This document shows, piece by piece, positions 17,486 through 55,043 of a stretch of 64,000 nucleotides of DNA. The DNA is taken from positions 781-64,780 of the forward strand of contig JAIRKA010000071.1 of the NCBI GenBank assembly GCA_031260345.1, in the 5' to 3' direction. Within the stretch, counting starts at the first letter, position 1. The number at the start of each line of letters is the position of its first letter. Under the pieces are notes generated by a model. It was not told where the DNA came from. It worked only from the letters and a program-made list of their open reading frames with translations, and did not search any database. This DNA comes from Methanosarcinales archaeon (GTDB lineage: Archaea; Halobacteriota; Methanosarcinia; Methanosarcinales; Methanosarcinaceae). Both the position numbers and the translations under genes were made by a program.

Positions 17486-17608
17486 GTTTTCTGTTTCCGC
17501 ATTTTATACTTTTTTGAGTCATCGTTTTTTGAGTCATTGTTTTCATCTTTTGTTTTTTATATTAAATTATTTATATTAGAAGTGACATATAACTCCAGAG
17601 GTATGATT

Positions 17609-19750
17609 ATGTTTTCTCATAGAAAATGCACTTGGATTATGTTATTGACCCTATTACTTTTGGGTTTGTGCGGTACCGCCGCAGCGGCGGATCCGGTTTA
17701 CGTCAATGAAGAATTGTTTATTCATATCGGCCGTGGTTCCTTAGGTCTTCCTGATGCTTATGGAACGCCTGCGGATTGGACTCTCGGTGCAGAGTATGTA
17801 TTGATTGAAAATGTCAGCATGTCACAGCTGCATTTAGTCGGTTTTGCTCCAATCGGCGACAGTTTGACTCCTTTTACAGGAAAATTTAACGGTCAAAATC
17901 ACACGATTTCAAATTTGAATCTCGTTTCAGCAGCCGGTTATACAGGTTTGTTCGGCTGTACCGACAGCGCAGAAATCAAAAATGTCATTTTGGACAATGT
18001 GACGATTTCCACCTCGGACTCTTATGCCGGATCTTTAACCGGTCAAACCGATAATACAATTGTTGAAAACTGCCATGTTTATGGAAAGTTAACAGCTGTA
18101 ATAACGGGAGATGAATCTTACGAAGAGTTACGTTATATCGGCGGTTTTGTCGGTGAAGGTTTGAATTCAACATTTTCTGACTGTTCCGCTTCAATTGATA
18201 TAACGGGTACAACAGCAGGAGGGACGGGGCGTGTAGACTTTTACCGGTTCGGCGGCTTTTCCGGTGACAGCCGCGGGTCATCTTATATTGATTGCCATGC
18301 TTCAGGCAATATAACACTTACAGCAGCAGGCTTTGACATTTTCTCTCTTTCGAATGCCGGCGGCTTTTCCGGTTCCGTTTATGACTCAACCTTTTCTAAT
18401 TGCTCTTCTTCAGGTGACATAACAGGAGGGTTTGATGGAAGGGATGTGAGGTTCATCACATCCAGCGGTTTTACCGGTTACGCTTATGGCTCAACCTTTT
18501 CCAATTGTTCTTCTTTGGGAAATATAATTGTAGCAGGTGCAGAAGATTCAGTCACTTCTCTTTACTTCTCTATGAACGGCGGTTTTGCCGGTGAAAGCTC
18601 TAGGTCAACCTATATTGACTGTTTCGCTTTAGGGGATATGAAAAGTACAATTGCAGGAAGAGTAACTGTCGAGTCATCTGACAACGGTGGTTTTATCGGA
18701 GCTTCTATTGCAGACAATATTAACAAATGTTTTGCGGCAGGCGATATAGAAATTACGGACGGAGGGCAGAATCTGCCTTCCGGCAGACAGGCTAGCGGCG
18801 GCTTTATCGGCGCCCTTTTTAATTCCAATGTTTCTAATTGTTATGCTACGGGGAATGTAACAGGCGTAGCTGCAGCCGGAGGGTTTGCAGGCTTTATATC
18901 GTATACAAATGATTATGGGCTAATGACAGCTTCTATAACAAATTGTTATGCTGTCGGCAATGTTTCCGGCAGAGGGGCAAATGTCGGGGGGTTTGCAGGC
19001 AATATGTATACATTCAATTATGATAAGGAAGCTGCCATTTCTTATTCATTCTACAGGGAAGACAACGGCGGCGGCAACAACGGCTACGCTGTTCCCAAAT
19101 GTTCTGAAGATTTGATGAAGATTGAAACTTTCAAAAATGCTCCCAAAAATCAGAACGATCCAACGATATCCGCCTGGGATATTTTATCCGTACCGCCCGA
19201 AGAACCAAGCATTTGGTACATATTAGTCGGGCAAGAGTATCCGAGATTCAATTGGGACTCTTATTCGATTACCTATGACGGCAACGGGAATACGGTAGGA
19301 AGCGCCCCCGTTTCTCCCAGGTCTTATGCATTGAATGAAGAAGCTGTCATTCTTGGCCGCGGCAGTTTGGAGAAAACCGGTCATACTTTTATCGGTTGGA
19401 AGACGGATGGCGTGACTCCCGAAGAAGAATATCAACCGGGAGATGCTCGAACAATGATCTCCGATATCGTTTTGTTTGCTCAGTGGAAACTCAATGAAAC
19501 ATCACCAGGCAGTGGCGGCGGCAATAGAACAGGAAACGCAACAGTCGTTCCGCCCGGCGGCAATAATTCAATCGACAGAGGAAATGTAACAAACCAGCCC
19601 GATCCGGATGGTGGAGATGAAACAAGGCTGTCGCCGATTCCCGAATTTCTTGATTCGGAAAGCATAACCGTTATTCTCTTTTTCGCGATTGCAATTGCTG
19701 TTTTCTGCTACAGAAGGTATGAGGAAGCAAAAGAAGAAAAACATCAATGA
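17609..19750 (+). CDS. GLUG-motif surface protein with one InlB-B-like repeat and C-terminal TM anchor
   Basis: Signal peptide (LLGLCGTAAA), FTGKFNGQNHTISNL, many GGF.G/C.A.G repeats, ITYDGNG...FIGW...LFAQW domain, C-terminal FFAIAIAVFCYRR. Confidence 0.85.
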   Translation: MFSHRKCTWIMLLTLLLLGLCGTAAAADPVYVNEELFIHIGRGSLGLPDAYGTPADWTLGAEYVLIENVSMSQLHLVGFAPIGDSLTPFTGKFNGQNHTISNLNLVSAAGYTGLFGCTDSAEIKNVILDNVTISTSDSYAGSLTGQTDNTIVENCHVYGKLTAVITGDESYEELRYIGGFVGEGLNSTFSDCSASIDITGTTAGGTGRVDFYRFGGFSGDSRGSSYIDCHASGNITLTAAGFDIFSLSNAGGFSGSVYDSTFSNCSSSGDITGGFDGRDVRFITSSGFTGYAYGSTFSNCSSLGNIIVAGAEDSVTSLYFSMNGGFAGESSRSTYIDCFALGDMKSTIAGRVTVESSDNGGFIGASIADNINKCFAAGDIEITDGGQNLPSGRQASGGFIGALFNSNVSNCYATGNVTGVAAAGGFAGFISYTNDYGLMTASITNCYAVGNVSGRGANVGGFAGNMYTFNYDKEAAISYSFYREDNGGGNNGYAVPKCSEDLMKIETFKNAPKNQNDPTISAWDILSVPPEEPSIWYILVGQEYPRFNWDSYSITYDGNGNTVGSAPVSPRSYALNEEAVILGRGSLEKTGHTFIGWKTDGVTPEEEYQPGDARTMISDIVLFAQWKLNETSPGSGGGNRTGNATVVPPGGNNSIDRGNVTNQPDPDGGDETRLSPIPEFLDSESITVILFFAIAIAVFCYRRYEEAKEEKHQ

Positions 19751-20086
19751 AATAATCGCTGACGCCATCATGGCATAAATTGACAAATGGATGCAGAGTT
19801 TCTTTCCTGCATCTTTTTGTTTTTGTTTGTTTTGTTTTTATTTTTCAAAACCTACTTCTTTTGAAAAAATGTTTATCTCTTTTGAAAAATGGTTTTGAAT
19901 CATTTTAGATGTCATTGGATATTAATAATATCGTCACCAAGGGAAGGTTTAAAATTATTTTCAACTTTAAAATGCTTTTTTAAAACATAAATTATATAAA
20001 TTAATAATGTAATTATAACTTCATTTATATTTTATTTATATTCTATTAGTCTCTTTAAGTTTTATCTTATTGTGAGATGCTATATT

Positions 20087-23000
20087 ATGTCGAAAAATTA
20101 TTTCTTGATCTTACTTTCCATGGTTCTTCTTTTGGGACTGTGCGGCGCTGCGGCAGCAGATTCAGTAACAGAATCTGCATCAACAAATGTTTTCTTTGAT
20201 TTATATGATTCTATCAAAAAACGGTTATCTGATTTAGTTCCCGATCGTTTTACCCCTGAGCCCGCATTGTCTCGTTTTGCTCCTGTGTACGGTGATACGA
20301 TTTATGTCAATGGGGAATTGTTTGTTCATATCGGCGATGGAGGTCAAAGGGGAGATGCTTACGGGACACTTGTGACGTGGTCTTTAGATGCACAATATAT
20401 TCTTATCGAAGATGTTGATTTGGCTCTTTACGCTTTTGCTCCAATCGGCCAGCCCGATCGGTTTATTGGTCCGGGGGAGACAGATATAAATGGTGTTCAG
20501 AAAAAGCCCGATGGTGGGTTTACCGGAACTTTTGACGGTCAAAATCATACGATTTCAAATTTGACGATTAATTATAACATGCATTATCTGGGTTTATTCA
20601 GATATATTGACAATGCGACTATTCAAAATGTCATTTTGGAGGGTGTTTTAATTAATGCCCCCAGTTCCATGTATGTCGGCTCTTTAATCGGGTTGAGCGT
20701 CGGCGAATATACGCTTGTTGAAAATTGCCATGTTTCGGGTACAGTGGCCGGACGGTATTATCTTGGCGGTTTTGTCGGCTCTGTTTGGGATTTTGGCACA
20801 GTCCAATCATCAAGTTCTTCTGTTAATGTTTCCGGCCAAGAGCCCGGCGGTTTTGTCGGATATAGTTACGGAGGCTCTTTTGAGGATTGTTTTGCAACCG
20901 GAAATGCTATCGGCACTTCCAGTTTTTCTAATTCCGGCGGTTTTGCTGCAATTACGGATGGAATTATCGCTGTGAATTGCAGCGCCTCCGGAAATGTCAG
21001 AGGGCTCGATGCCGCAGGCGGTTTCATTGGTTACATATACAACACGGAAGGGTTTGAGATATCCTTTGTTGACTGCAGTGCAACGGGAAATGTTGAAGGA
21101 TCTGAATCAGTCGGCGGCTTTGTCGGATATTTTATACACTACGAAGGACTCGATGTTGTTATTACATCTTCTTCCGCTTCCGGAAATGTTAACGGGTCTC
21201 GATACATTGGCGGTTTCATTGGGGTTATTGAGAATATTAATGGATATAATGTTGTTTTTGAAGACTGCGTTGCAGAAGGCAATGTGAACGGATCGTCATA
21301 CGTCGGCGGCTTCATTGGGTATTACACAAACAATGGTGAAGACTCGGGAATTTCTTTTGACGCTTGTTCTGCGTCCGGTAATGTTAACGGCAGTGATAGT
21401 GTCGGCGGTTTTATCGGGCTTCTTTACGACCCGAGCATAAATTCGAGTATCTTTTTTAATGAATGCATTGCAGCAGGCACTGTGAACGGATCGCTTTATG
21501 TCGGCGGTTTCATTGGGCGTTACTTAAATGATGCCGAAGATTCTAATGTTTTCTTTAATACGTGTTCTGCCTCCGGAAATGTTACCGGATATAGGTCAGT
21601 CGGCGGTTTTTTGGGTTCTTTTGAAGGTCAAAACTCGGGTGAAAGCTGTACGATTGTTTTTGATTCCTGTTCCGCTTCAGGAATGATTCAAGGAGACCAA
21701 TACATCGGCGGTTTTGTCGGATACTTCGACAACCCCGGCGAAAATTTTAATATCATTTTTGAAAAGTGTGCCGCAACCGGTGGCGTGGATGGTACTTACG
21801 ATGTCGGCGGTTTTGCCGGCAACTCAACTTTTGGTATTTTCAGTACCTGTTCTGCAGCCGGCGCAGTGACCGGATTTGGACCGCTTGGCGGTTTTATAGG
21901 TTATTCATTCAGCAGCCAATTCTTTAATTGTTCTGCAATCGGCGATGTGACAGCAAGCGTTGACATCTATGAAGATATGACATTCAGCACCGGCGGTTTT
22001 GTTGGAATCAGCGGATACAGCGTTTTTGAGAAGTGTACGGCAGACGGCAATGTGATTGGATACAGCATGATCGGCGGTTTTGCGGGTCAATCAACCCATG
22101 ATGAAATGACAGTCTGTTTTGCTTCCGGAAATGTTGGTCTTAATAGCTTTATCATTGAATCGCAAGAATATATTTCACACAGCGGCGGTTTTGCCGGAAG
22201 TTTTTCCAATACAGTTGTTTCAATTTGCTCCGCAACGGGTGATGTGACCGGCGTTCTTAATGTCGGCGGTTTTGCCGGTTCAATCTATTCGGATGATTCC
22301 GGCATTTTTATCACAGAGGCTTGGATAACAAATTGCTATGCGACAGGCAATGTGACCGGCGTGGATTTTGTCGGCGGATTTGTCGGAAGTATTGAGGGCG
22401 ATGTGAGTGTCGGTCCTTTTGTAAAATATACTTATGCAGCAGGTGATGTGACCGGTACCGGCTCTGATGTCGGCTGTTTTGCCGGTGTCACAATGGCCGG
22501 AGCGGGAGATTCAATCATTGAATACAGTTTTTATAAAGAAGGAAACGGCGGCGTGAACAACGGCTATGCAATGCCGATGCCCAATGATGATTTAATGAAG
22601 GTTAATACATTTTTAAACGCTCCTAAAAATCAGACGAATGGAACAATTTCCGCTTGGGATATTACAAACAGCCCCAACAGCACTCATATTTGGTATGTTC
22701 ACGAAAATGAAGACTATCCCAGATTCGTTTTGACATATGGTTTCTTTTTTGTCACTTACGATGGCAATAATGCCGACAGCGGAACAGCTCCGATTGATTC
22801 CAATGAATACCTGTATGGCGATATTGCAACAGTGCTTGGCAACACTAACCTTGTAAAAAACGGCTTCACTTTCGACGGCTGGGAGTATAACGGCGATACC
22901 TACAGAGCCGGAAACGTCGTGATCATGTTTGAAAACGTTACAATGAGAGCGATTTGGGCACCACCCGGAGGCGGAGGAGGAGGAAACGGAACAGGCAACG

Positions 23001-23206
23001 GGACAGTCGTTCCACCCGGCGGCAACAATTCAACCGGTAACAACTCAACCGGTAATAACTCCACCGGCAACAATTCAACCGAGCCGCCGACAGATCCCGA
23101 CGAGCCGGGTCGGGAAGTTGCAACGATCATTCTCTTTTTCGTGATTGCAATTGCTGTTTTCTGTTACAGAAGATATGAAGAAGCAAAAGAAGAAAAGTCA
23201 TCATGA
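20087..23206 (+). CDS. GLUG-motif surface protein with InlB-B-like repeat, GNNST linker and C-terminal TM anchor
   Basis: Paralog of the neighbouring genes with an expanded VGGF.G / CSASGNV repeat region and a VTYDGN...FDGW domain. Confidence 0.85.
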   Translation: MSKNYFLILLSMVLLLGLCGAAAADSVTESASTNVFFDLYDSIKKRLSDLVPDRFTPEPALSRFAPVYGDTIYVNGELFVHIGDGGQRGDAYGTLVTWSLDAQYILIEDVDLALYAFAPIGQPDRFIGPGETDINGVQKKPDGGFTGTFDGQNHTISNLTINYNMHYLGLFRYIDNATIQNVILEGVLINAPSSMYVGSLIGLSVGEYTLVENCHVSGTVAGRYYLGGFVGSVWDFGTVQSSSSSVNVSGQEPGGFVGYSYGGSFEDCFATGNAIGTSSFSNSGGFAAITDGIIAVNCSASGNVRGLDAAGGFIGYIYNTEGFEISFVDCSATGNVEGSESVGGFVGYFIHYEGLDVVITSSSASGNVNGSRYIGGFIGVIENINGYNVVFEDCVAEGNVNGSSYVGGFIGYYTNNGEDSGISFDACSASGNVNGSDSVGGFIGLLYDPSINSSIFFNECIAAGTVNGSLYVGGFIGRYLNDAEDSNVFFNTCSASGNVTGYRSVGGFLGSFEGQNSGESCTIVFDSCSASGMIQGDQYIGGFVGYFDNPGENFNIIFEKCAATGGVDGTYDVGGFAGNSTFGIFSTCSAAGAVTGFGPLGGFIGYSFSSQFFNCSAIGDVTASVDIYEDMTFSTGGFVGISGYSVFEKCTADGNVIGYSMIGGFAGQSTHDEMTVCFASGNVGLNSFIIESQEYISHSGGFAGSFSNTVVSICSATGDVTGVLNVGGFAGSIYSDDSGIFITEAWITNCYATGNVTGVDFVGGFVGSIEGDVSVGPFVKYTYAAGDVTGTGSDVGCFAGVTMAGAGDSIIEYSFYKEGNGGVNNGYAMPMPNDDLMKVNTFLNAPKNQTNGTISAWDITNSPNSTHIWYVHENEDYPRFVLTYGFFFVTYDGNNADSGTAPIDSNEYLYGDIATVLGNTNLVKNGFTFDGWEYNGDTYRAGNVVIMFENVTMRAIWAPPGGGGGGNGTGNGTVVPPGGNNSTGNNSTGNNSTGNNSTEPPTDPDEPGREVATIILFFVIAIAVFCYRRYEEAKEEKSS

Positions 23207-23364
23207 GATAATCGTTGACGTAATCATGACATAAATTGACAAATGGATGCAGAGCTCCTTCTGCATCTCTTTTAATATTTTTAAAATTATTTTGTTTTCA
23301 ATTATTCGATTATATTCATTAACACTGCATTTATTTGATTGAAAGGACCCCATAGATGGTTTAT

Positions 23365-25452
23365 ATGACAGTTTCAAAAAAGTATCCGGCAATTTTACTC
23401 ATGATTGTTTTATTTTTGAGTCTGTGCGGTCCTGCTTCGGCGGCAGATCCTGCCGCAGGCACGTCGATGCAGTCTACGGCAGCGAATGTTTATTTTGGTT
23501 TACATGATTCCGCCAAAAAACTGTTTGATGATTATGTTTATGACAGCTTTATTTTCCGTCCTATGCGGTATCTCCTCAGTGTCATATACGATGATACAAT
23601 TTATGTCAACGAAGAACTGTTTGCGCATATCGGTGACGGTTCTGAAAGGGCTGATGCCGAAGGACGGTCTGTGACATGGTCTCTTGACGCTTCATATGTT
23701 CTTGTCGAAAATGTCAGCATGGAAAATGTTTCGGGCTTTGCTCCGATTGGTACGAGTGCAAACAGTTTTACGGGAACTTTTGACGGCCAAAATTACACAA
23801 TTTCTCATTTGAATCTTGCTTCAACATCTCCTTACGCAGGTTTATTCGGTTACACCAACAATGCGGCAATCAAAAATGTTATTTTGGAAAATGTGACGAT
23901 TTCTTCTGACAGCTATGCCGGTTCTTTAATCGGATACAGTACCGGCGAAAATACAATTGTTGACAATTGCCGCGCTGACGGAAATGTGACCGGAAATTAC
24001 AGCATCGGCGGATTAATCGGTTATGCCGGAGGAGGAAATTATTCCAACCTCAGTTTTTCAGGAAATGTAACGGGTTCTTCCGATTCTTACAGCATCGGCG
24101 GTTTGTTCGGCAGTTTTAACGGACACGGCTTAAACAGCGATTTCTCCGGCAATGTTCAAGGCCAGTCCTATGTCGGCGGTTTTGCCGGTTCAGCCTCAGG
24201 TACCGGTTTTACCATCTCGGGGATCAATATTTCCGGCAGCGTGACCGGAGCTTACAGCGTCGGCGGTTTTGCAGGTGACGCTCACGGCCATTATACGAAT
24301 ATCAACAACAGCCATTCTTCGGCCAATGTCATCGGCGCAGGAGACAATGTATACAATGTCGGCGGCTTTTTAGGATCTTCGTGGGGATTTAATTCTAATA
24401 TTTCAAATTGCAGTGCTTCAGGCGACGTTATCGGAAATAGTTACGTCGGCGGTTTTATCGGGCACGGCGGCATCAGCAATTTCACAAACAGCTTTGCGGC
24501 CGGTAATGTAAAAGGTACAGGAACAGGCGTCGGTGGTTTTGCCGGCAACGGCGGCACAGAGGGATCTTTTATAAATTGCAGTGCTTCGGGCGATGTTGAA
24601 GGACATACGAATGTCGGCGGATTTATCGGCGAATCTTCAAGCGGCGTCCTCGCTCTTTCTGTTTGCTACGCTTCTGGAAATGTCATCGGTACGGAAAATG
24701 TCGGCGGATTTGTCGGCAGCTTAACAGGCATGATGTATGACGATGGCGAACGGATTATTGAGCAGATTGCCAATTGTTATGCGACAGGCAATGTGGAAGG
24801 GAGTGAGTATGTCGGCGGTTTTATCGGCTATTTTGAAGTTTCCTTAAACACTTGGATTAATCCTGAAATAATTCAAATGCCGATTAAGAATTGCTACGCT
24901 GTCGGCAATATAACCGGCACCGGACTAAATGTCGGCGGTTTTGCAGGTGGTGAAGGTCCGACAGGCGGAACTTCAATCGGCTACAGTTTTTACAGAGAAG
25001 ACAACGGCGGCGGCAACAACGGTTTTGCAATTCCGAAATCCTCTGAAGATTTAATGAAAATTGAAACTTTCCTCAACGCCGGCAAAAATCAAAGCGCACT
25101 TGATACGATCTCCGCCTGGCCTATTTCATCCGTTCCGCCAACAGGTCCGAACATTTGGGATAGTTGCGAAGGAAAGGAATACCCGCGATTCAATTGGACA
25201 TATGTTCCGGACAACGGTGGCGGCGGCAATGGGGGAGGGGGAGGAAACGGCACGGGCAACGGGACAGTCGTTCCGCCCGGCGGCAACAATTCAACCGATA
25301 ATAACTCCACTGGCAACAACTCAACCGAGCCGCCGACAGATCCCGAAGAGCCGGGTCGGGAAGTTGCAACGATCGTTCTCTTTTTCGTGATTGCAATCGC
25401 TGTTTTCTGTTACAGAAGATATGAAGAAGCAAAAGAAGAAAAGTCATCATGA
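23365..25452 (+). CDS. GLUG-motif surface protein with C-terminal TM anchor (no InlB-B repeat)
   Basis: FTGTFDGQNYTISHL, GLFGYT, VGGF.G repeats; C-terminus nearly identical to the preceding gene. Confidence 0.85.
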   Translation: MTVSKKYPAILLMIVLFLSLCGPASAADPAAGTSMQSTAANVYFGLHDSAKKLFDDYVYDSFIFRPMRYLLSVIYDDTIYVNEELFAHIGDGSERADAEGRSVTWSLDASYVLVENVSMENVSGFAPIGTSANSFTGTFDGQNYTISHLNLASTSPYAGLFGYTNNAAIKNVILENVTISSDSYAGSLIGYSTGENTIVDNCRADGNVTGNYSIGGLIGYAGGGNYSNLSFSGNVTGSSDSYSIGGLFGSFNGHGLNSDFSGNVQGQSYVGGFAGSASGTGFTISGINISGSVTGAYSVGGFAGDAHGHYTNINNSHSSANVIGAGDNVYNVGGFLGSSWGFNSNISNCSASGDVIGNSYVGGFIGHGGISNFTNSFAAGNVKGTGTGVGGFAGNGGTEGSFINCSASGDVEGHTNVGGFIGESSSGVLALSVCYASGNVIGTENVGGFVGSLTGMMYDDGERIIEQIANCYATGNVEGSEYVGGFIGYFEVSLNTWINPEIIQMPIKNCYAVGNITGTGLNVGGFAGGEGPTGGTSIGYSFYREDNGGGNNGFAIPKSSEDLMKIETFLNAGKNQSALDTISAWPISSVPPTGPNIWDSCEGKEYPRFNWTYVPDNGGGGNGGGGGNGTGNGTVVPPGGNNSTDNNSTGNNSTEPPTDPEEPGREVATIVLFFVIAIAVFCYRRYEEAKEEKSS

Positions 25453-37111: not shown

Positions 37112-37396
37112 ATGGCAAAAAAAGAAATGGAAGAAGTTGTCGTGGATATTGATGATGACACGCCGACCGCATATTCTGAAATTAAAATGGGCGGCGGCTG
37201 GTACATGGCGATTTCTTTGGAGAGAAGCGAACGCTTTGACAAAGAATACGTTGAAATTTCAAAAGAGCGCGCCGGCAAAAAGAAATCCCGCTTCAACTTG
37301 AGTCCCAAGCACACGCGCATTTTGGGTGAAGCGCTCATCAAGTTCGCTGACGAAAATGATTTGGACAATTTCGACAGCAAAGGCGATGAAGAATAA
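37112..37396 (+). CDS. Small hypothetical protein
   Basis: GGAGG ribosome-binding site; 94 aa with protein-like composition. Confidence 0.75.
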   Translation: MAKKEMEEVVVDIDDDTPTAYSEIKMGGGWYMAISLERSERFDKEYVEISKERAGKKKSRFNLSPKHTRILGEALIKFADENDLDNFDSKGDEE

Positions 37397-37407
37397 TTTT
37401 TCGGATT

Positions 37408-37452
37408 TTGGCCGCTCCGCAGGAACGGCCAAGCTTGGAGCGCAGCTTCAAG
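37408..37452 (+). repeat. Family A palindromic repeat
   Basis: TTGGCCG-CTCC-GCA-GGAA-CGGCCAA then CTTGGAGC-GCA-GCTTCAAG. Confidence 0.85.
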
Positions 37453-37838
37453 TGATTTCAATTCCGGAATTTCAACTATTTTTTAGGAACTTCCGCTCGT
37501 ATTCCCTCTTTTTCCTTTTACTCGCCTCGGGCCGAAGAAGTAAGATTCATCGGCCTTTCAGCTTCTCTTTGAATCGGTGATTTTTTAGATTCACATAATT
37601 TCGGTAATCTGTTTGACGGTTTGCTGTCAAATACTTGTTGTTTTTTGACGTTTGTTCCGTTTTTCAAATTATTTTCTTTTAATCAATTTTATTACCAGAA
37701 AACTATTTTCAACATCGGGCGACATTTTTATATATTTTACAAAGCATATGTGATTAATTTAAACATTTGTTTATTTACAGATGCATTTGTCTATTTGTAT
37801 ATACATTTGTTTATTTTGATTTATGAGGATTGTTTACT

Positions 37839-40800
37839 ATGGGTATTTCAAAAAAATATTTATTAATTTCTTTTATCACGATTGCTCTGTTTTTGGGTTT
37901 GTGCGGCACTGCTGCTGCAGCAGACACAATTCATGTTAACGAAAGCTTGTTTATACATATCGGCAGCGGCGATACAATGACTGATGCCTTGGGGTTGGGG
38001 CCTTTCACATGGTCTCTTAACGCAAATTACATTCTTGTCGAAGATATTGACCTGTCATCGGGTTTTACTCCGATCGGCAATTGGACAGATCCCTTTACAG
38101 GAACTTTTGACGGTCAAGATTAGACAATTTCTAATCTGTCTTTTGTTGGAAGCGGCATGATGGGTTTATTTGGATAGACCGATGGTGCGAGAATCAAAAA
38201 CGTTACTTTGGATAATGTTCATACAAATTCGATTAATAATGTCGGTTCTTTAATCGGCTGCGGTCTAAATACAACTGTTGAAAATTGTCACACTACGAAT
38301 GGCCGTCTCGTGCAAGGCGGCGGCGTCGGTGTCGGCGGTTTAATCGGATATTTGGAGAACAGTACTGTTTCAAACAGTTCATTTTCCGGAGAAATCAGCG
38401 GAAGTTTTAATGTCGGCGGTTTTGTCGGTCATCTCGTGAACAGCACTGTCACGGATTCCAACAGCGCTGTCGTTGTTCGCGGCGGTAATTGGTCAATCGG
38501 CGGTTTTGTCGGCCGTCTTGATTCGGACAGCGTTATCATGAGGTCACACAGTTCCGGAAGTTTCCAAACCGGCGGTCCGGTAGGGGTAGGAACTCCCAGT
38601 CGTTCCGGCGGCTTTGTCGGGATATCACAGGGTACCATCTCCGACAGCAGTTCTTCGGTTGATATCTTTGCATACGCAGGGAGGGATGAGCTTGGCGGCT
38701 TTGTCGGCCGTCTTGAGTCGGACGGTATCATCAAAAACTCAAGCAGCTCGGGCAATGTCAGCGGAGAACATGTTATTGGCGGGTTTGTCGGGTATTCTGA
38801 AGGTGAGATCCGTTACAGCTATTCTACAGGCGATGTAACAGTTCGTTCGCAATGGTCCATTGATTGGAACAGCTGTTTTGGAGGTTTTGTCGGGGCGGTT
38901 GACAGCGGTGCTTTGATTTCCAACAGTTTTGCATCCGGTGATGTCTCAGGGCATAACAATGTCGGCGGCTTTGTCGGGTCTTTTAATGCGGATTATTTTT
39001 TAATTGAATACTGCTACGCTGTCGGCAGTGTTTCCGGAAATGATAATGTCGGCGGTTTTACGGGCGGAGCCGGTCAGGGGAGTGACGCAGAGCTTAATTC
39101 CGGTTTAATCCGATCCAGTTTCTTCAGATTAAATAACGGCGGCGGTATAAGCTGTTATGCCATTCCCGAATACAGCGTCAATTTAATGAAAATGACTACT
39201 TTCTCAGCCGAAGGCTGGTCTATTTCATCTGCGCCGAACGCTGATTATATTTGGTATATCGAAGAAGACGCTGCATATCCGAAATTCTACTGGCAATATA
39301 CATATGTGCCCACGATCACGATTACAGCCAACAGCGGCACGTTTGACTTTGACGGCACTGAGAAGAGTGTCAGCGGCCTCGCTTCTACTGTCTGGGCAGG
39401 CGGTCAGCCCGTCGGCGCTACCCTCGGCGGTTTGAGTGCGAGCGCAGCACGTACTGTTCCCGGCACGACCGAAGTGCTTGTGACGGGCACCGCTCAGGTA
39501 ATGCTTGGCGGCACAGACGTGACGGCAAATTACAATATCGTCAGGACTTCCGGCGAGTTGGTAATCAACAGCCGGACTGACGGCACCGGCGGTACCGATG
39601 ACACCAGAATCACGATCACAGTGACAGCCAACAGCGGCACGTTTGATTTTGACGGCACTGAGAAGAGTGTCAGCGGCTTCGCCTCTACTGTCTGGTCTGA
39701 CGGCAACCCCGGAGGCGCAGCCCTCAGCGGTCTGAGTGCGAACGCAGCACGTGCCATTCCTGGTACGGCCGAAGTGCTTGTGACGGGCACCGCTCAGGTA
39801 ATGCTTGGCGGCGCAGACGTGACGGCGAATTATAATATCGTCAGGCTTCCCGGCACATTGACGGTCAACGAACCGGACGAAGGGAGCAGGATCACGATTA
39901 CAGTTACGGCCGACAGCGACACGTTTGACTTCGACGGCACCGAAAAAGTTGTCAGCGGCTTTACCGCTGTTTGGGCGGGCGGTCAGCCTGAAGGCGCAGC
40001 CCTCAGCGGCCTGAGCGCGAGCGCGTCACGTACTCTTCCGGGAACGACCGATGTGTTTGTTACGGGAACTGCCCTGATAATGCTTGACGGCACAGATGTG
40101 ACGGCAAATTACAATATCGTCAGGACTTCCGGTGAGTTGGTAATCAACAGCCGAACCGACGGCACCGGCGGCACCGATGACAACAGGATTACGATCACGG
40201 CGACAGCCGACAGCGGCATGTTTGATTTTGACGGCACTGAAAAAGATGTCAGCGGCTTTACCGCTGTCTGGACAGGCGGTCAGCCCGTCGGCGCAGTCCT
40301 CAGCGGTCTGAGCGCGAACGCGGCACGTACCCTTCCGGGAACGACTGATGTGTTTGTTACGGGAACTGCCCAGGTAATGCTTGACGGCGCAGATGTGACG
40401 GCGAATTACGATATCATCAAGCTGCCCGGTACTCTGACAGTAAACGCGTTGACAGACGGCACCGGCGGCACTGATGATAACAGGATCATGATCACGGTGA
40501 CAGCCGACAGCGGCACGTTTGACTTCGACGGCACTGAGAAGAGTGTCAGCAGCTTTACCGTTGACTGGTCTGACGGCAACCCCGGAGGCGCTGTCCTCAG
40601 CGGTCTGGACGCGAGCGCATCGCGTATCGCTCCCGGTACGACCGATGTGCTTGTGACGGGAACCGCACAGGTAATGCTTGACGGCGCAGATGTGACGGCG
40701 AATTACGATATCGTCAAGCTGCCCGGCACTCTGACAGTAAACGCATTGATAGACGGCACCGGCGGTACCGATGATAACAGAATCGTGATCACGGTTACAG

Positions 40801-41330
40801 CCAACAGCGGCACGTTTGACTTTGACGGCACCGAGAAGAGTGTCAGCGGCTTTACCGTCGAATGGTCTGACGGGCAACCCGAAGACGCAGTCCTCAGCGG
40901 TCTGGACGCGAGCGCGTCACGCACCGTTCCCGGTACGACTGAAGTGCTTGTGACGGGAACCGCCGAGATAATACTTGACGACGCAGACGTGACGGCGAAT
41001 TACAATATCATCAAGCTGCCCGGCGAATTGATAATCAACGAGCCGGCCGCCGGTACCGGTGGTGGCGGCAGCGGCACGGGCAATGCAACTATTGTTCCGC
41101 CTGCCGGCGATACAGGTTACGAAATTGACGTTCTGTCACAAGACGAATCGGGAGAAAACGGCAGCGGCGTTAACGGAAGCGACAGTAATGTGCGCGGTTT
41201 CGGAGGAGAAACGGAGTCTTCTTGGAGTGGGTGGCATTTCGCGCTTCTTTTACTTGGAGCTGCAATCGGCCTGCTCCTCTTGCTCTTTTTCTACAGAAAG
41301 AGAAAAAATAATAAAGAAAAAGCGAATTGA
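37839..41330 (+). CDS. GLUG plus six MBG-like repeat adhesin with two in-frame TAG codons (38121-38123, 38175-38177); probable pyrrolysine readthrough, alternatively a young pseudogene
   Basis: ORFs 37830-38123 and 38208-41330 share a frame. The bridge reads FDGQD*TISNLSFVGSGMMGLFG*TDGARIKNVTLDNV and is colinear with the three GLUG paralogs. Signal peptide at the N-terminus, TM plus RKRK at the C-terminus. Confidence 0.75.
39310..41040 (+). repeat. Six tandem coding repeats of about 280-300 bp (MBG-like stalk domains)
   Basis: Six copies of ITxTA(N/D)SxxFDFDGTEK...DVTANY(N/D)I...G(T/E)L with high DNA similarity. Confidence 0.9.
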
Positions 41331-53666: not shown

Positions 53667-55043
53667 ATGACATACAAAAGATCAATTGATGCGTACGAGT
53701 TCTACAACCGTGCAAAAATCGGTGAAAAGTGCTCACAGGATGACTGGGACTTGATGCATGTTCCGATGAAAGCAATGGAATTGAAACAAAAATACGGTCT
53801 TGACTTCAAAGGCGAAATCGTTCCGACCGATGCCGACATGATCGAAAAGCTCTTCCAAGCCGGTTTTGACATGCTTATGGCAGGTATCTTTGTTACAGAC
53901 ACCAACAGAATCGTCAAATACACAGAAGATGAAATCTGGGATGCAATCAACAACCCCATGCCCGAATTCCAACTCGGCTGGGGCAGAGACGCTGTTACAA
54001 TGAAAAGAAGAGAAATGGGCGACAAGAGAGGACCCTTGATTCAGGGCGGTCCGACCGGTTCACCTGTCTCCGAAAACGTCTTCTACGAAGTTCACATGTC
54101 CTATGCTCTTGAAAGAGAAGTTGACACCCTCGTTAACGGTGTTATGACAACCGTCCGCGGCTACCCGCCGACACCGAAAACACCCTTCGAAATCCTTGCC
54201 GCAAAGACTGAATCAAGAATTATCAAACAGTCCGCAGCAACCGCCGGTCGCCCGGGAATGGGTATATAGGGCCCCGAAACCTCCCTCTCTGCACAGGGCA
54301 ACATCGCTGCAGACTGTCCGGGCGGTCTTACAAACTATGACAGCCACGAAGTTTCTCAACTCAACGAAATGAAGATCGACCTTGACGCGATTTCCGTTAT
54401 TGCCCACTACCACGGCAACAACGACATCATCATGGACGAACAGATGCCGATTTACGGCGGCTACGCCGGCGGTCTTGAAGAGACAGCAATCGTTGACGTT
54501 GCATCAGCCATCAACGCATTCGTCATGTCCGGCGCAAGCTGGCACCTTGACGGTCCGGTCCACATCAGATGGGGATCCACCAACACCAGAGAAACCCTCG
54601 CCATTGCAGGCTGGTCCTCTGCTGCAATCACCAACCACACCGGATTCATGACAGGTAACCAGTACTACCCGTGTGCCGGTCCGTGTACTGAAATGGTTTT
54701 CCTTGAAGTTGCCGCACAGGCAATGACCGACTCCGCATCCGGCAGAGAAATTCTCTCCGGTGTCGCAGCCGCGAAAGGTGTCATTACAGACAAAACAACC
54801 GGTATGGAAGCCCGCATGATGGGAGAAGTCGCAAGAGCAGCAGCAGGCGTTGACATTGCTGAAATCAACAAGATTTTGAGCAAACTCGTCCCGAGCTACG
54901 AAAAGAACTTCGCCAACGCACCGCAGGGTAAAACCTTCCAGGAATGTTACGACGTTAAAACCATTACACCCACTGACGAACACGTCAAAGTCTACGAAGC
55001 AGCAAAGAAGAAGATCGAAGGCTTCGGTCTTGTCTTTAAATGA
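53667..55043 (+). CDS. mtmB: Monomethylamine:corrinoid methyltransferase with pyrrolysine at in-frame TAG 54267-54269
   Basis: AGRPGMGI*GPETSLSAQG context is the canonical MtmB Pyl site; readthrough gives 458 aa ending at TGA. Confidence 0.97.

What the first reader, a model, noticed from the sequence alone, without database searches (positions are those of the whole stretch)
37839..41330. Surface adhesin with two in-frame amber codons: candidate pyrrolysine-containing, possibly Pyl-gated adhesin
Seen: one frame from ATG 37839 to TGA 41330 is interrupted only by TAG at codons 95 and 113, 54 nt apart. The signal peptide lies before the TAGs and the GLUG body, six stalk repeats and membrane anchor lie after them, so neither piece is complete alone. 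The TAGs align with H/H/Y and C/Y/Y in the three paralogs (TAC at both sites in the 23365 gene). About 1050 downstream codons have no stop or frameshift. Established: mtmB here needs TAG decoded as pyrrolysine. Inference: two lesions that are both TAG, with no TAA, TGA or indel, fit Pyl substitution better than decay. If readthrough depends on Pyl supply, two early ambers could tie adhesin display to methylamine availability.
Basis: partly seen in the sequence, partly recalled or inferred. Interest (0 to 1): 0.9.

Follow-up and report, generated by a model that had tools for sequence, protein, structure and literature searches.

The report
Adhesin with two pyrrolysine codons
A termite-gut methanogen carries a surface-protein gene with two in-frame TAG codons, and because TAG also sits inside housekeeping genes across this genome and genus, they are likely ordinary pyrrolysine substitutions in an organism that has largely recoded TAG, not a gene-specific methylamine switch.

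Summary
Observation confirmed: one frame 37839-41330, broken only by TAG at codons 95 and 113; a contig of the likely source run shows the same letters. The organism is a Methanimicrococcus with pyl genes and tRNA-Pyl. TAG is recoded genome-wide: 30 of 1240 complete genes end in TAG, 22 of these are internal; against a relative, internal stops are 15 TAG, 1 TAA, 0 TGA; hisG keeps its TAG in 7 of 11 genus genomes under strong selection; purK has three. This fits the published 'Code 34', whose preprint names this genus. So read-through as pyrrolysine is likely, but the two sites are variable positions, TAG in none of 66 homologous heads, without a PYLIS, and adhesins are not clearly richer in TAG than other fast-evolving genes. 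Gene-specific gating is weakly supported. An amber-bearing adhesin-like gene was already reported in a rumen methanogen. Two leads remain: ambers in surface proteins cluster near the 5' end (7 genes, post hoc), and a winged-helix regulator keeps a TAG at one codon across two genera, a far better candidate for a selected pyrrolysine sensor.

The parts
37839..41330 (+). GLUG-family adhesin-like gene, 1163 codons when both TAG are read through
37839..37919 (+). predicted Sec signal peptide (residues 1-27; cleavage after the Ala run inferred from paralog alignment)
   Evidence: no signal-peptide predictor was run
38121..38123 (+). TAG, codon 95; homologs mostly Tyr, His, Phe, Lys; in a predicted beta-strand of the N-terminal cap
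38175..38177 (+). TAG, codon 113; homologs Tyr, Cys, Phe, Val, Ser, Ala, Asn; first rung of the variable position that follows G-x-x-G in each helix turn
37920..39308 (+). GLUG beta-helix head (residues 28-490), predicted right-handed beta-helix like the non-catalytic beta-helix of IgA1 proteases and BACOVA_03286
39312..41039 (+). six ~99-residue stalk repeats, no Pfam match at E 0.05; one more copy in G000:C51
41232..41294 (+). predicted C-terminal membrane anchor followed by a basic tail
53667..55043 (+). mtmB with TAG at 54267-54269 and the window's only Rfam hit, PYLIS_1 (54267-54366)
17537..25452 (+). three GLUG paralogs (17537-19750, 20072-23206, 23356-25452) without internal TAG

Best explanation
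The gene has two in-frame TAG codons and likely encodes a full-length, membrane-anchored GLUG beta-helix adhesin in which both are read as pyrrolysine, because this Methanimicrococcus lineage likely uses TAG mainly as a sense codon; the two Pyl residues are likely near-neutral replacements (probably of Tyr) at variable, likely exposed sites. Steps: (shown) pylT, pylS and pylB are in the genome, TAG almost never ends genes and sits inside conserved housekeeping genes; (inferred) Pyl-tRNA is supplied on all substrates and decodes UAG without a PYLIS; (inferred) the signal peptide exports the chain, the head projects on a six-repeat stalk and the C-terminal helix holds it in the membrane; (inferred) release factor still wins at some UAGs, so output is about r-squared with short 94- or 112-residue by-products, a cost small enough to drift when the amber is early but larger when it is late, which would explain why ambers in surface proteins lie 5'.
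For: tRNA-Pyl, pylS and pylB on G000:C20, two further ORFs of pylC/pylD size next to them (not family-scanned). 30 of 1240 complete genes end in TAG; 22 are internal, 4 have extensions of 5 codons or fewer, 4 unclear, none overlaps another gene out of frame by more than 4 nt. Internal stops against G001: 15 TAG, 1 TAA, 0 TGA in 340,398 aligned codons. hisG TAG at codon 230 in 7 of 11 genus genomes, Glu or Gln in 4; dN/dS 3' of it 0.03-0.11 in the 4 of 6 pairs not saturated, as 5'. purK, whose purE partner is the only full purE found in G000, has 3 TAG where its nearest homolog has Lys, Tyr, Gln. An orthologous GLUG adhesin in G009 and G010 keeps one TAG at 61% identity, dS about 1.2, dN/dS 3' 0.20, so TAG-bearing adhesins are translated and kept. 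Sites 95 and 113 carry TAG in 0 of 66 other head alignments. TAG density rises with divergence: 1.7, 11.3, 9.9 and 23.7 per 100,000 codons in conserved, divergent, accessory and adhesin genes; adhesin vs divergent plus accessory P 0.08-0.12. Stalk repeats dN/dS 0.19-0.60 in 15 of 15 pairs, 45 of 86 columns invariant, head folds at pLDDT about 90.
Against: No expression or proteomic data. Adhesins are richer in TAG than all non-methyltransferase genes together (P 0.006), and two TAG in one 1163-codon gene has P 0.007-0.03 for this gene, 0.12-0.5 expected among 26. The 5' clustering shows the ambers are not placed at random; the cost explanation for it is untested. The test for recent loss of selection (singleton changes in repeats) was inconclusive: pN/pS 0.61, P 0.15. 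No ortholog exists to date the TAGs (best relatives 30-45% identical; no adhesin at the syntenic place in G001). PurK may be dispensable at high CO2 (recalled).
Confidence: 0.68

Rival explanations
1. Adaptive attenuation: early ambers are kept because they tie the amount of displayed adhesin to the Pyl supply/demand ratio (yield about r-squared), linking attachment to substrate; early position makes the off state cheap.
For: In 7 complete surface genes from 5 genomes the 9 TAG events have mean opportunity-weighted position 0.20 vs 0.61 in 23 other genes (Mann-Whitney P 2e-4; vs uniform P 0.006). A 3374-residue adhesin in G001 also has two early TAG (200, 252). G000 has two mtaB, so a low-Pyl-demand state exists. 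In M. acetivorans tRNA-Pyl is about 58% charged on TMA vs 21% on methanol and UAG is read both ways (PMC13663744, PMC12626013).
Against: Housekeeping genes share the same dependence. 22 of 26 adhesin genes in G000 have no TAG, so gating one would barely change total adhesion. Sites are unconserved. Against the 4 long non-surface genes alone the positional difference is P 0.07. Selection against late ambers or repeat homogenisation explains the bias without regulation. One paper predicts higher read-through on methanol, the other on TMA.
Confidence: 0.12
2. Recent pseudogene or silent copy: the TAGs are nonsense lesions in one of 26 redundant adhesins.
For: Both being TAG by chance is 0.13-0.16; lineage-specific gene; singleton test inconclusive; no RNA run was listed to test expression.
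Against: TAG is tolerated as sense genome-wide, so it is not a lesion here; 1050 codons without TAA, TGA or frameshift; signal peptide, anchor and fold intact.
Confidence: 0.1
3. Pyl is selected as a chemical residue on the binding face of the head (bulky, imine-bearing side chain contacting gut cuticle, glycans or partner cells).
For: Site 113 and the TAG of G000:C47 fall on the same variable rung position; the G009/G010 adhesin keeps its TAG at dS about 1.2. All surface-protein TAGs with known start lie in N-terminal heads.
Against: No site is shared between adhesin subfamilies; exposure was inferred from residue variability, not computed; no ligand is known.
Confidence: 0.08
4. Assembly or sequencing error.
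For: Depth is only about 9 and no raw reads were seen.
Against: A separately assembled contig shows the same letters; errors would not favour TAG 15:1:0 nor recur in complete genomes.
Confidence: 0.02

Closest known systems
Archaeal Genetic Code 34, genome-wide TAG = Pyl (Kivenson et al., bioRxiv 10.1101/2024.09.30.615893)
   Same: Pyl machinery, TAG use under 5%, many internal TAG in unrelated proteins, mostly singletons thought neutral; the text names Methanimicrococcus among eight genera with numerous internal-TAG genes.
   Different: Proteomics there covered Methanococcoides burtonii and Methanomethylophilus alvi, not this genus; the main text never mentions adhesin, GLUG or surface. Its supplementary list of 1903 proteins could not be seen and may hold such genes.
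Amber-containing adhesin-like gene of rumen methanogen ISO4-H5 (PMC5011839)
   Same: A gut methanogen with 46 in-frame-amber genes, one of them an adhesin-like protein gene.
   Different: Other order; no analysis of position, conservation or function.
GLUG and Flg_new adhesin-like proteins of Methanimicrococcus blatticola (PMC9723798)
   Same: Membrane-bound GLUG proteins (15 there) proposed to hold the non-motile cells on the insect gut wall.
   Different: Adhesion is untested for the family; no amber codons noted (0 hits for amber or TAG); this member has an unnamed ~99-residue stalk repeat instead of Flg_new.
Beta-helix region of M26 IgA1 proteases (6XJA, 7UVK) and BACOVA_03286 (3N6Z)
   Same: Same predicted fold: Z 26-28, rmsd 2.5-3.0 over 249-267 residues; sequence E 1e-11.
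   Different: Only the non-catalytic beta-helix matches; scores are far below the ZmpA cut-off (50 vs 3000 bits).
Ambiguous UAG decoding in Methanosarcina acetivorans (PMC12626013, PMC13663744)
   Same: Pyl-tRNA competes with release factor; supply and demand vary with substrate.
   Different: That organism uses about 5% TAG and keeps true TAG stops; here 2.4% with none clearly terminal and with TAG in biosynthetic genes.

Membership tests
Genetic Code 34 organism (Group C) | Pyl machinery pylTS, pylBCD | tested here: met
   tRNA-Pyl, pylS and pylB over cut-off; pylC and pylD only as adjacent ORFs of fitting size
Genetic Code 34 organism (Group C) | Low TAG frequency (5% or less) | tested here: met
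   30 of 1240 complete genes, 2.4%, own gene caller; G001 24 of 1493
Genetic Code 34 organism (Group C) | Most TAG internal with homology on both sides; few or no large out-of-frame overlaps on read-through | tested here: met
   22 of 30 internal, 0 of 30 with overlap above 4 nt out of frame
Genetic Code 34 organism (Group C) | Pyl detected in proteins; TAG never terminates | not testable with these tools
   needs proteomics or ribosome profiling; a release factor gene is present (motif match)
GLUG-motif adhesin-like protein | GLUG repeats (PF07581) forming a beta-helix | tested here: met
GLUG-motif adhesin-like protein | Signal peptide and membrane anchor | tested here: met
   hydropathy only and paralog alignment
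GLUG-motif adhesin-like protein | Binds host surface or partner cells | not testable with these tools
   function is proposed, not shown, for the family
M26 IgA1 / Zmp metalloprotease | C-terminal zinc protease domain and full-length family score | tested here: not met
   only residues 88-242 match ZmpA, 50 bits vs cut-off 3000; the C-terminal half is repeats and anchor
PYLIS-assisted Pyl gene (mtmB type) | PYLIS_1 element 3' of UAG | tested here: not met
   Rfam finds PYLIS_1 only at mtmB; folding 100 nt 3' of the two TAG gave z -0.85 and -2.49, the true PYLIS 0.04, so folding energy is uninformative
Selected (functional) Pyl site | TAG conserved at the same codon across relatives | tested here: not met
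   0 of 66 other heads, against 11 of 11 loci for the C53 regulator; no true ortholog was found, so the test is on paralogs and distant homologs

The most novel reading that the evidence does not exclude
In Methanimicrococcus, amber codons are used systematically in the N-terminal heads of surface proteins, either as a translational dial that ties adhesin display to pyrrolysine supply or as a 22nd residue on the binding face, while a genus-wide Pyl-containing winged-helix regulator reads the same supply; this gene, with two early ambers, would be the steepest such dial.
Probability: 0.15. Interest if true: 0.82.

Novelty: new member of a known kind. Interest (0 to 1): 0.38.

Why it matters
As read here it is one more Pyl protein in a recoded genus, and a reminder that code-11 annotation cuts such genes (the database holds this protein as a 1040-residue form without signal peptide). 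It adds sequence evidence that Methanimicrococcus needs Pyl for histidine and purine genes. It makes an open question testable in cultured relatives: is UAG in Code 34 archaea fully sense, or leaky? Long secreted proteins with early ambers and a fixed-Pyl regulator are good reporters. If gating were real it would be the first case of an expanded genetic code regulating host attachment.

Tried and rejected
No RNA holder listed for the stretch; runs X2 and X3 gave only short paralog-like pieces. A pattern scan for relatives of the head in genome contigs found none; search of 31 relatives found no ortholog. First fold without alignment was poor, pLDDT 45; the second left the stalk repeat unresolved, pLDDT under 55, so its fold is untested; the Atlas look-up for the stalk did not complete. 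Pfam gave nothing for the stalk at E 0.05. Head vs paralog dN/dS is near saturation (pS 0.6-0.76) and cannot date the TAGs. A family-wide search for more orthologs of the G009/G010 adhesin drew only 5 genus genomes and found G009 alone. An internal restart at TTG 38208 was considered and rejected: it would lack the signal peptide. TAG as Gln or another standard residue was rejected: homologs show Glu, Gln, Trp, Ser, Lys and Tyr at TAG sites, nearly all one base from TAG. Contamination was rejected for purK, the GmrSD gene and the C47 and C68 adhesins: their contigs carry genus orthologs at 80-98%. Two look-ups of earlier scan findings returned nothing. Five paper searches listed no paper on Pyl-gated adhesins, on 5' bias of ambers or on the regulator; closed supplements may bear on this.

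Full report
Observation. The frame from ATG 37839 to TGA 41330 holds 1163 codons, broken only by TAG at 38121 (codon 95) and 38175 (codon 113). Hydropathy shows one N-terminal and one C-terminal hydrophobic segment. Pfam finds GLUG motifs; six ~99-residue repeats run from residue 492 to 1067. The three window paralogs have H/H/Y and C/Y/Y at the two sites. One contig of run X1, perhaps the source sample, covers 37700-39300 at depth 8.7 with no other letter. Taken alone, 'both lesions are TAG' is weak: P 0.13-0.16 from the gene's own mutational paths.

Organism. The window lies in a 1.59-Mb assembly held by a termite gut metagenome run. Its hisG is 84-91% identical to the ten best records, nine titled Methanimicrococcus, and 78% to Methanolapillus. 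It has tRNA-Pyl, pylS, pylB and two adjacent ORFs of pylC/pylD size, five methylamine methyltransferase genes with TAG and two mtaB.

TAG is a sense codon genome-wide. Of 534 long ORFs with a stop, 11 end in TAG. With my own dicodon gene caller (it misses some AT-rich genes), 30 of 1240 complete genes end in TAG; 22 continue in frame into the same protein, 4 extend by 5 codons or fewer, 4 are unclear, none runs into a large out-of-frame overlap. In a symmetric test, the 12 TAG flanked by coding-like sequence all lay inside one protein, whereas the 36 TAA/TGA cases were, on reading, gene junctions or spurious frames bar one. Aligning all called proteins of the complete relative G001 to this genome gave 15 TAG, 1 TAA, 0 TGA and 2 frameshift-like cases in 340,398 codons; the reverse gave 12 TAG and 3 TAA (two of them upstream of a likely true start). 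hisG has TAG at codon 230 in 7 of 11 genus genomes with dN/dS 0.03-0.11 beyond it. purK passes its NCBIfam cut-off only as a read-through product and has three TAG where the nearest homolog has Lys, Tyr, Gln. pepN, a hydantoinase-family gene and two radical SAM genes carry one each; G001 has one in a gene that reads as pyrF (name from sequence, recalled). This is the pattern of Genetic Code 34; the preprint names Methanimicrococcus among eight genera with many internal-TAG genes and argues that TAG in essential genes forces constitutive Pyl supply.

The two sites. Among 67 alignments of the head's N-terminal part from this genome, G001 and fetched loci, only the gene itself has TAG. Site 95 is Tyr in 18, His in 17, Phe in 12, Lys in 7; site 113 is Tyr in 15 and otherwise widely mixed. 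TAC/TAT to TAG is one step. A model built on 29 sequences gives a confident beta-helix for the head (mean pLDDT 83, about 90 in the head, under 55 in the stalk) with both sites in strands; its nearest solved folds are the beta-helix of IgA1 proteases and BACOVA_03286 (Z 26-28). Site 113 is the first rung of a position that reads C, Y, H, R, I, R, Y, A, S, G along the helix, which suggests an outward-facing side chain (inference; no coordinates were available). PYLIS_1 occurs only at mtmB. No ortholog was found among 30 relatives, and G001 has no adhesin between the same flanking genes.

Is the gene alive? Stalk repeats show dN/dS 0.19-0.60 in all 15 pairs and 45 of 86 invariant columns, but changes unique to one repeat give pN/pS 0.61, P 0.15, which cannot exclude recent relaxation. 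That TAG-bearing adhesins can be functional is shown by an orthologous pair in G009 and G010: same TAG, 61% identity, dS about 1.2, dN/dS 0.20 beyond it.

Are adhesins special? In G000, 4 of 26 GLUG or Flg_new genes carry 5 TAG: 23.7 per 100,000 codons against 1.7 in well-conserved genes, 11.3 in divergent orthologs and 9.9 in accessory genes (an underestimate, as three accessory genes with 6 TAG were missed by the caller). Against all other genes P is 0.006; against divergent plus accessory genes 0.08-0.12. In G001 the figures are 9.1 vs 1.8-4.1. So TAG mostly tracks divergence. Position is the surprise: in 79 5'-complete surface genes from 8 genus genomes (G000 and G001 nearly whole, the rest sampled), all 11 TAG (10 independent events) lie at codon 372 or earlier. 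In 7 complete genes the mean opportunity-weighted position is 0.20, against 0.61 in 23 other genes (P 2e-4), but only P 0.07 against the 4 long non-surface genes. Rows left out of that test: contig-edge genes C47, C68 and C38, C117 (start unsure), TAG within 30 codons of a start or 16 of an end, and orthologs counted once. The pattern was seen first and tested afterwards, and a wider sample of G008 and G009 adhesins was not obtained.

Mechanism. Most likely (0.68) the protein is made full length with two Pyl residues that drifted in at tolerant sites; leaky termination gives small exported fragments, and selection against late ambers in long exported proteins yields the 5' bias. Gating (0.12) needs substrate-dependent read-through. 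In M. acetivorans tRNA-Pyl charging is higher on trimethylamine (PMC13663744) while a transcript model predicts higher read-through on methanol (PMC12626013), so even the direction is open, and here hisG and purK would be gated too. Silent copy 0.10, Pyl as binding residue 0.08, error 0.02. What a selected Pyl site looks like is shown by a winged-helix regulator: TAG in 11 of 11 genus genomes, at the same codon in 11 of 11 loci from two genera, replacing a conserved Tyr. The adhesin sites look nothing like that.

Known and new. Code 34 and GLUG adhesin-like proteins of this genus are described, and an amber-bearing adhesin-like gene was reported in ISO4-H5; constitutive Pyl with stable amber mutations in gut methanogens was argued in PMC4153887. 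Five searches listed nothing on gated adhesins, 5' bias or the regulator. What I saw: 10.1101/2024.09.30.615893 parts 1-4 of 8 and a term search, no supplements (its tables S5 and S9 may list these genes and give the genus's group); PMC12626013 part 1 of 8 and passages; PMC13663744 part 1 of 7 and passages; PMC9723798, PMC11362671, PMC5011839, PMC4153887 and 10.1101/2025.05.05.652248 passages only.

Verdict. A real feature, a new member of a known kind; interest 0.38.

Noticed in passing
G000:C53:602-1408 (-), L037, L292-L302: Winged-helix plus PF08350 (FilR1_middle) regulator with an internal TAG in 11 of 11 genus genomes; same codon (163) in all 8 genus and 3 sister-genus loci checked, Tyr in 13 and Phe in 1 of 14 more distant homologs; its paralogs have none. 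Best candidate here for a selected Pyl site or the Pyl-sensing regulator proposed in PMC12626013. Likeness to Msr regulators is recalled, not tested.
   Followed up: partly
G000:C61:1953-3625 (-), L031: purK-purE pair, apparently acquired, at the place where G001 has a shorter purE (45% identical); purK has gained three TAG.
   Followed up: partly
G000:C76:1331-2203 (-), L051-L061: hisG with TAG at codon 230 in 7 of 11 genus genomes, downstream part under strong purifying selection.
   Followed up: yes
L261 and L262 (G010:C15, G009:C2): Orthologous GLUG adhesin beside mutS that keeps one TAG at 61% identity.
   Followed up: partly
surface genes of G000, G001, G005, G009, G010: All 11 TAG found in 79 5'-complete surface genes lie at codon 372 or earlier, though codons 31-400 hold 24% of TAG-neighbour codons; post hoc, partial sampling, giant repeat genes inflate the late share.
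   Followed up: partly
window 37406-37452: About 47-bp intergenic repeat upstream of the adhesin with 17 further matches in G000 and none in G001; unexplained.
   Followed up: no
window 37112-37396 (+): 94-codon gene, 89% identical at DNA level in G001, no Pfam match.
   Followed up: no
G000:C8:17049: The one non-TAG internal stop (TAA) in a gene 96% identical to its G001 ortholog: a true lesion or an error.
   Followed up: no
G000:C116:4926-5657 (+), L047: Gene matching the ADP-ribosyltransferase family PF03496 with an internal TAG shared with G001.
   Followed up: no
G000:C76:3632-7384, C87:1989-4016, C9:35748-36689: Accessory genes with internal TAG: a beta-propeller protein (3), a GmrSD-type nuclease (1), a DUF5677 protein (2).
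   Followed up: no
G000:C47 end and C68 end: Two contig-edge adhesin fragments, each with one TAG, that might be halves of one gene; no overlap seen.
   Followed up: partly
G005 (L277-L278, L282-L283), G001:1614165-1637348: Giant surface proteins of 9644, 9534 and 7727 residues without any TAG.
   Followed up: no
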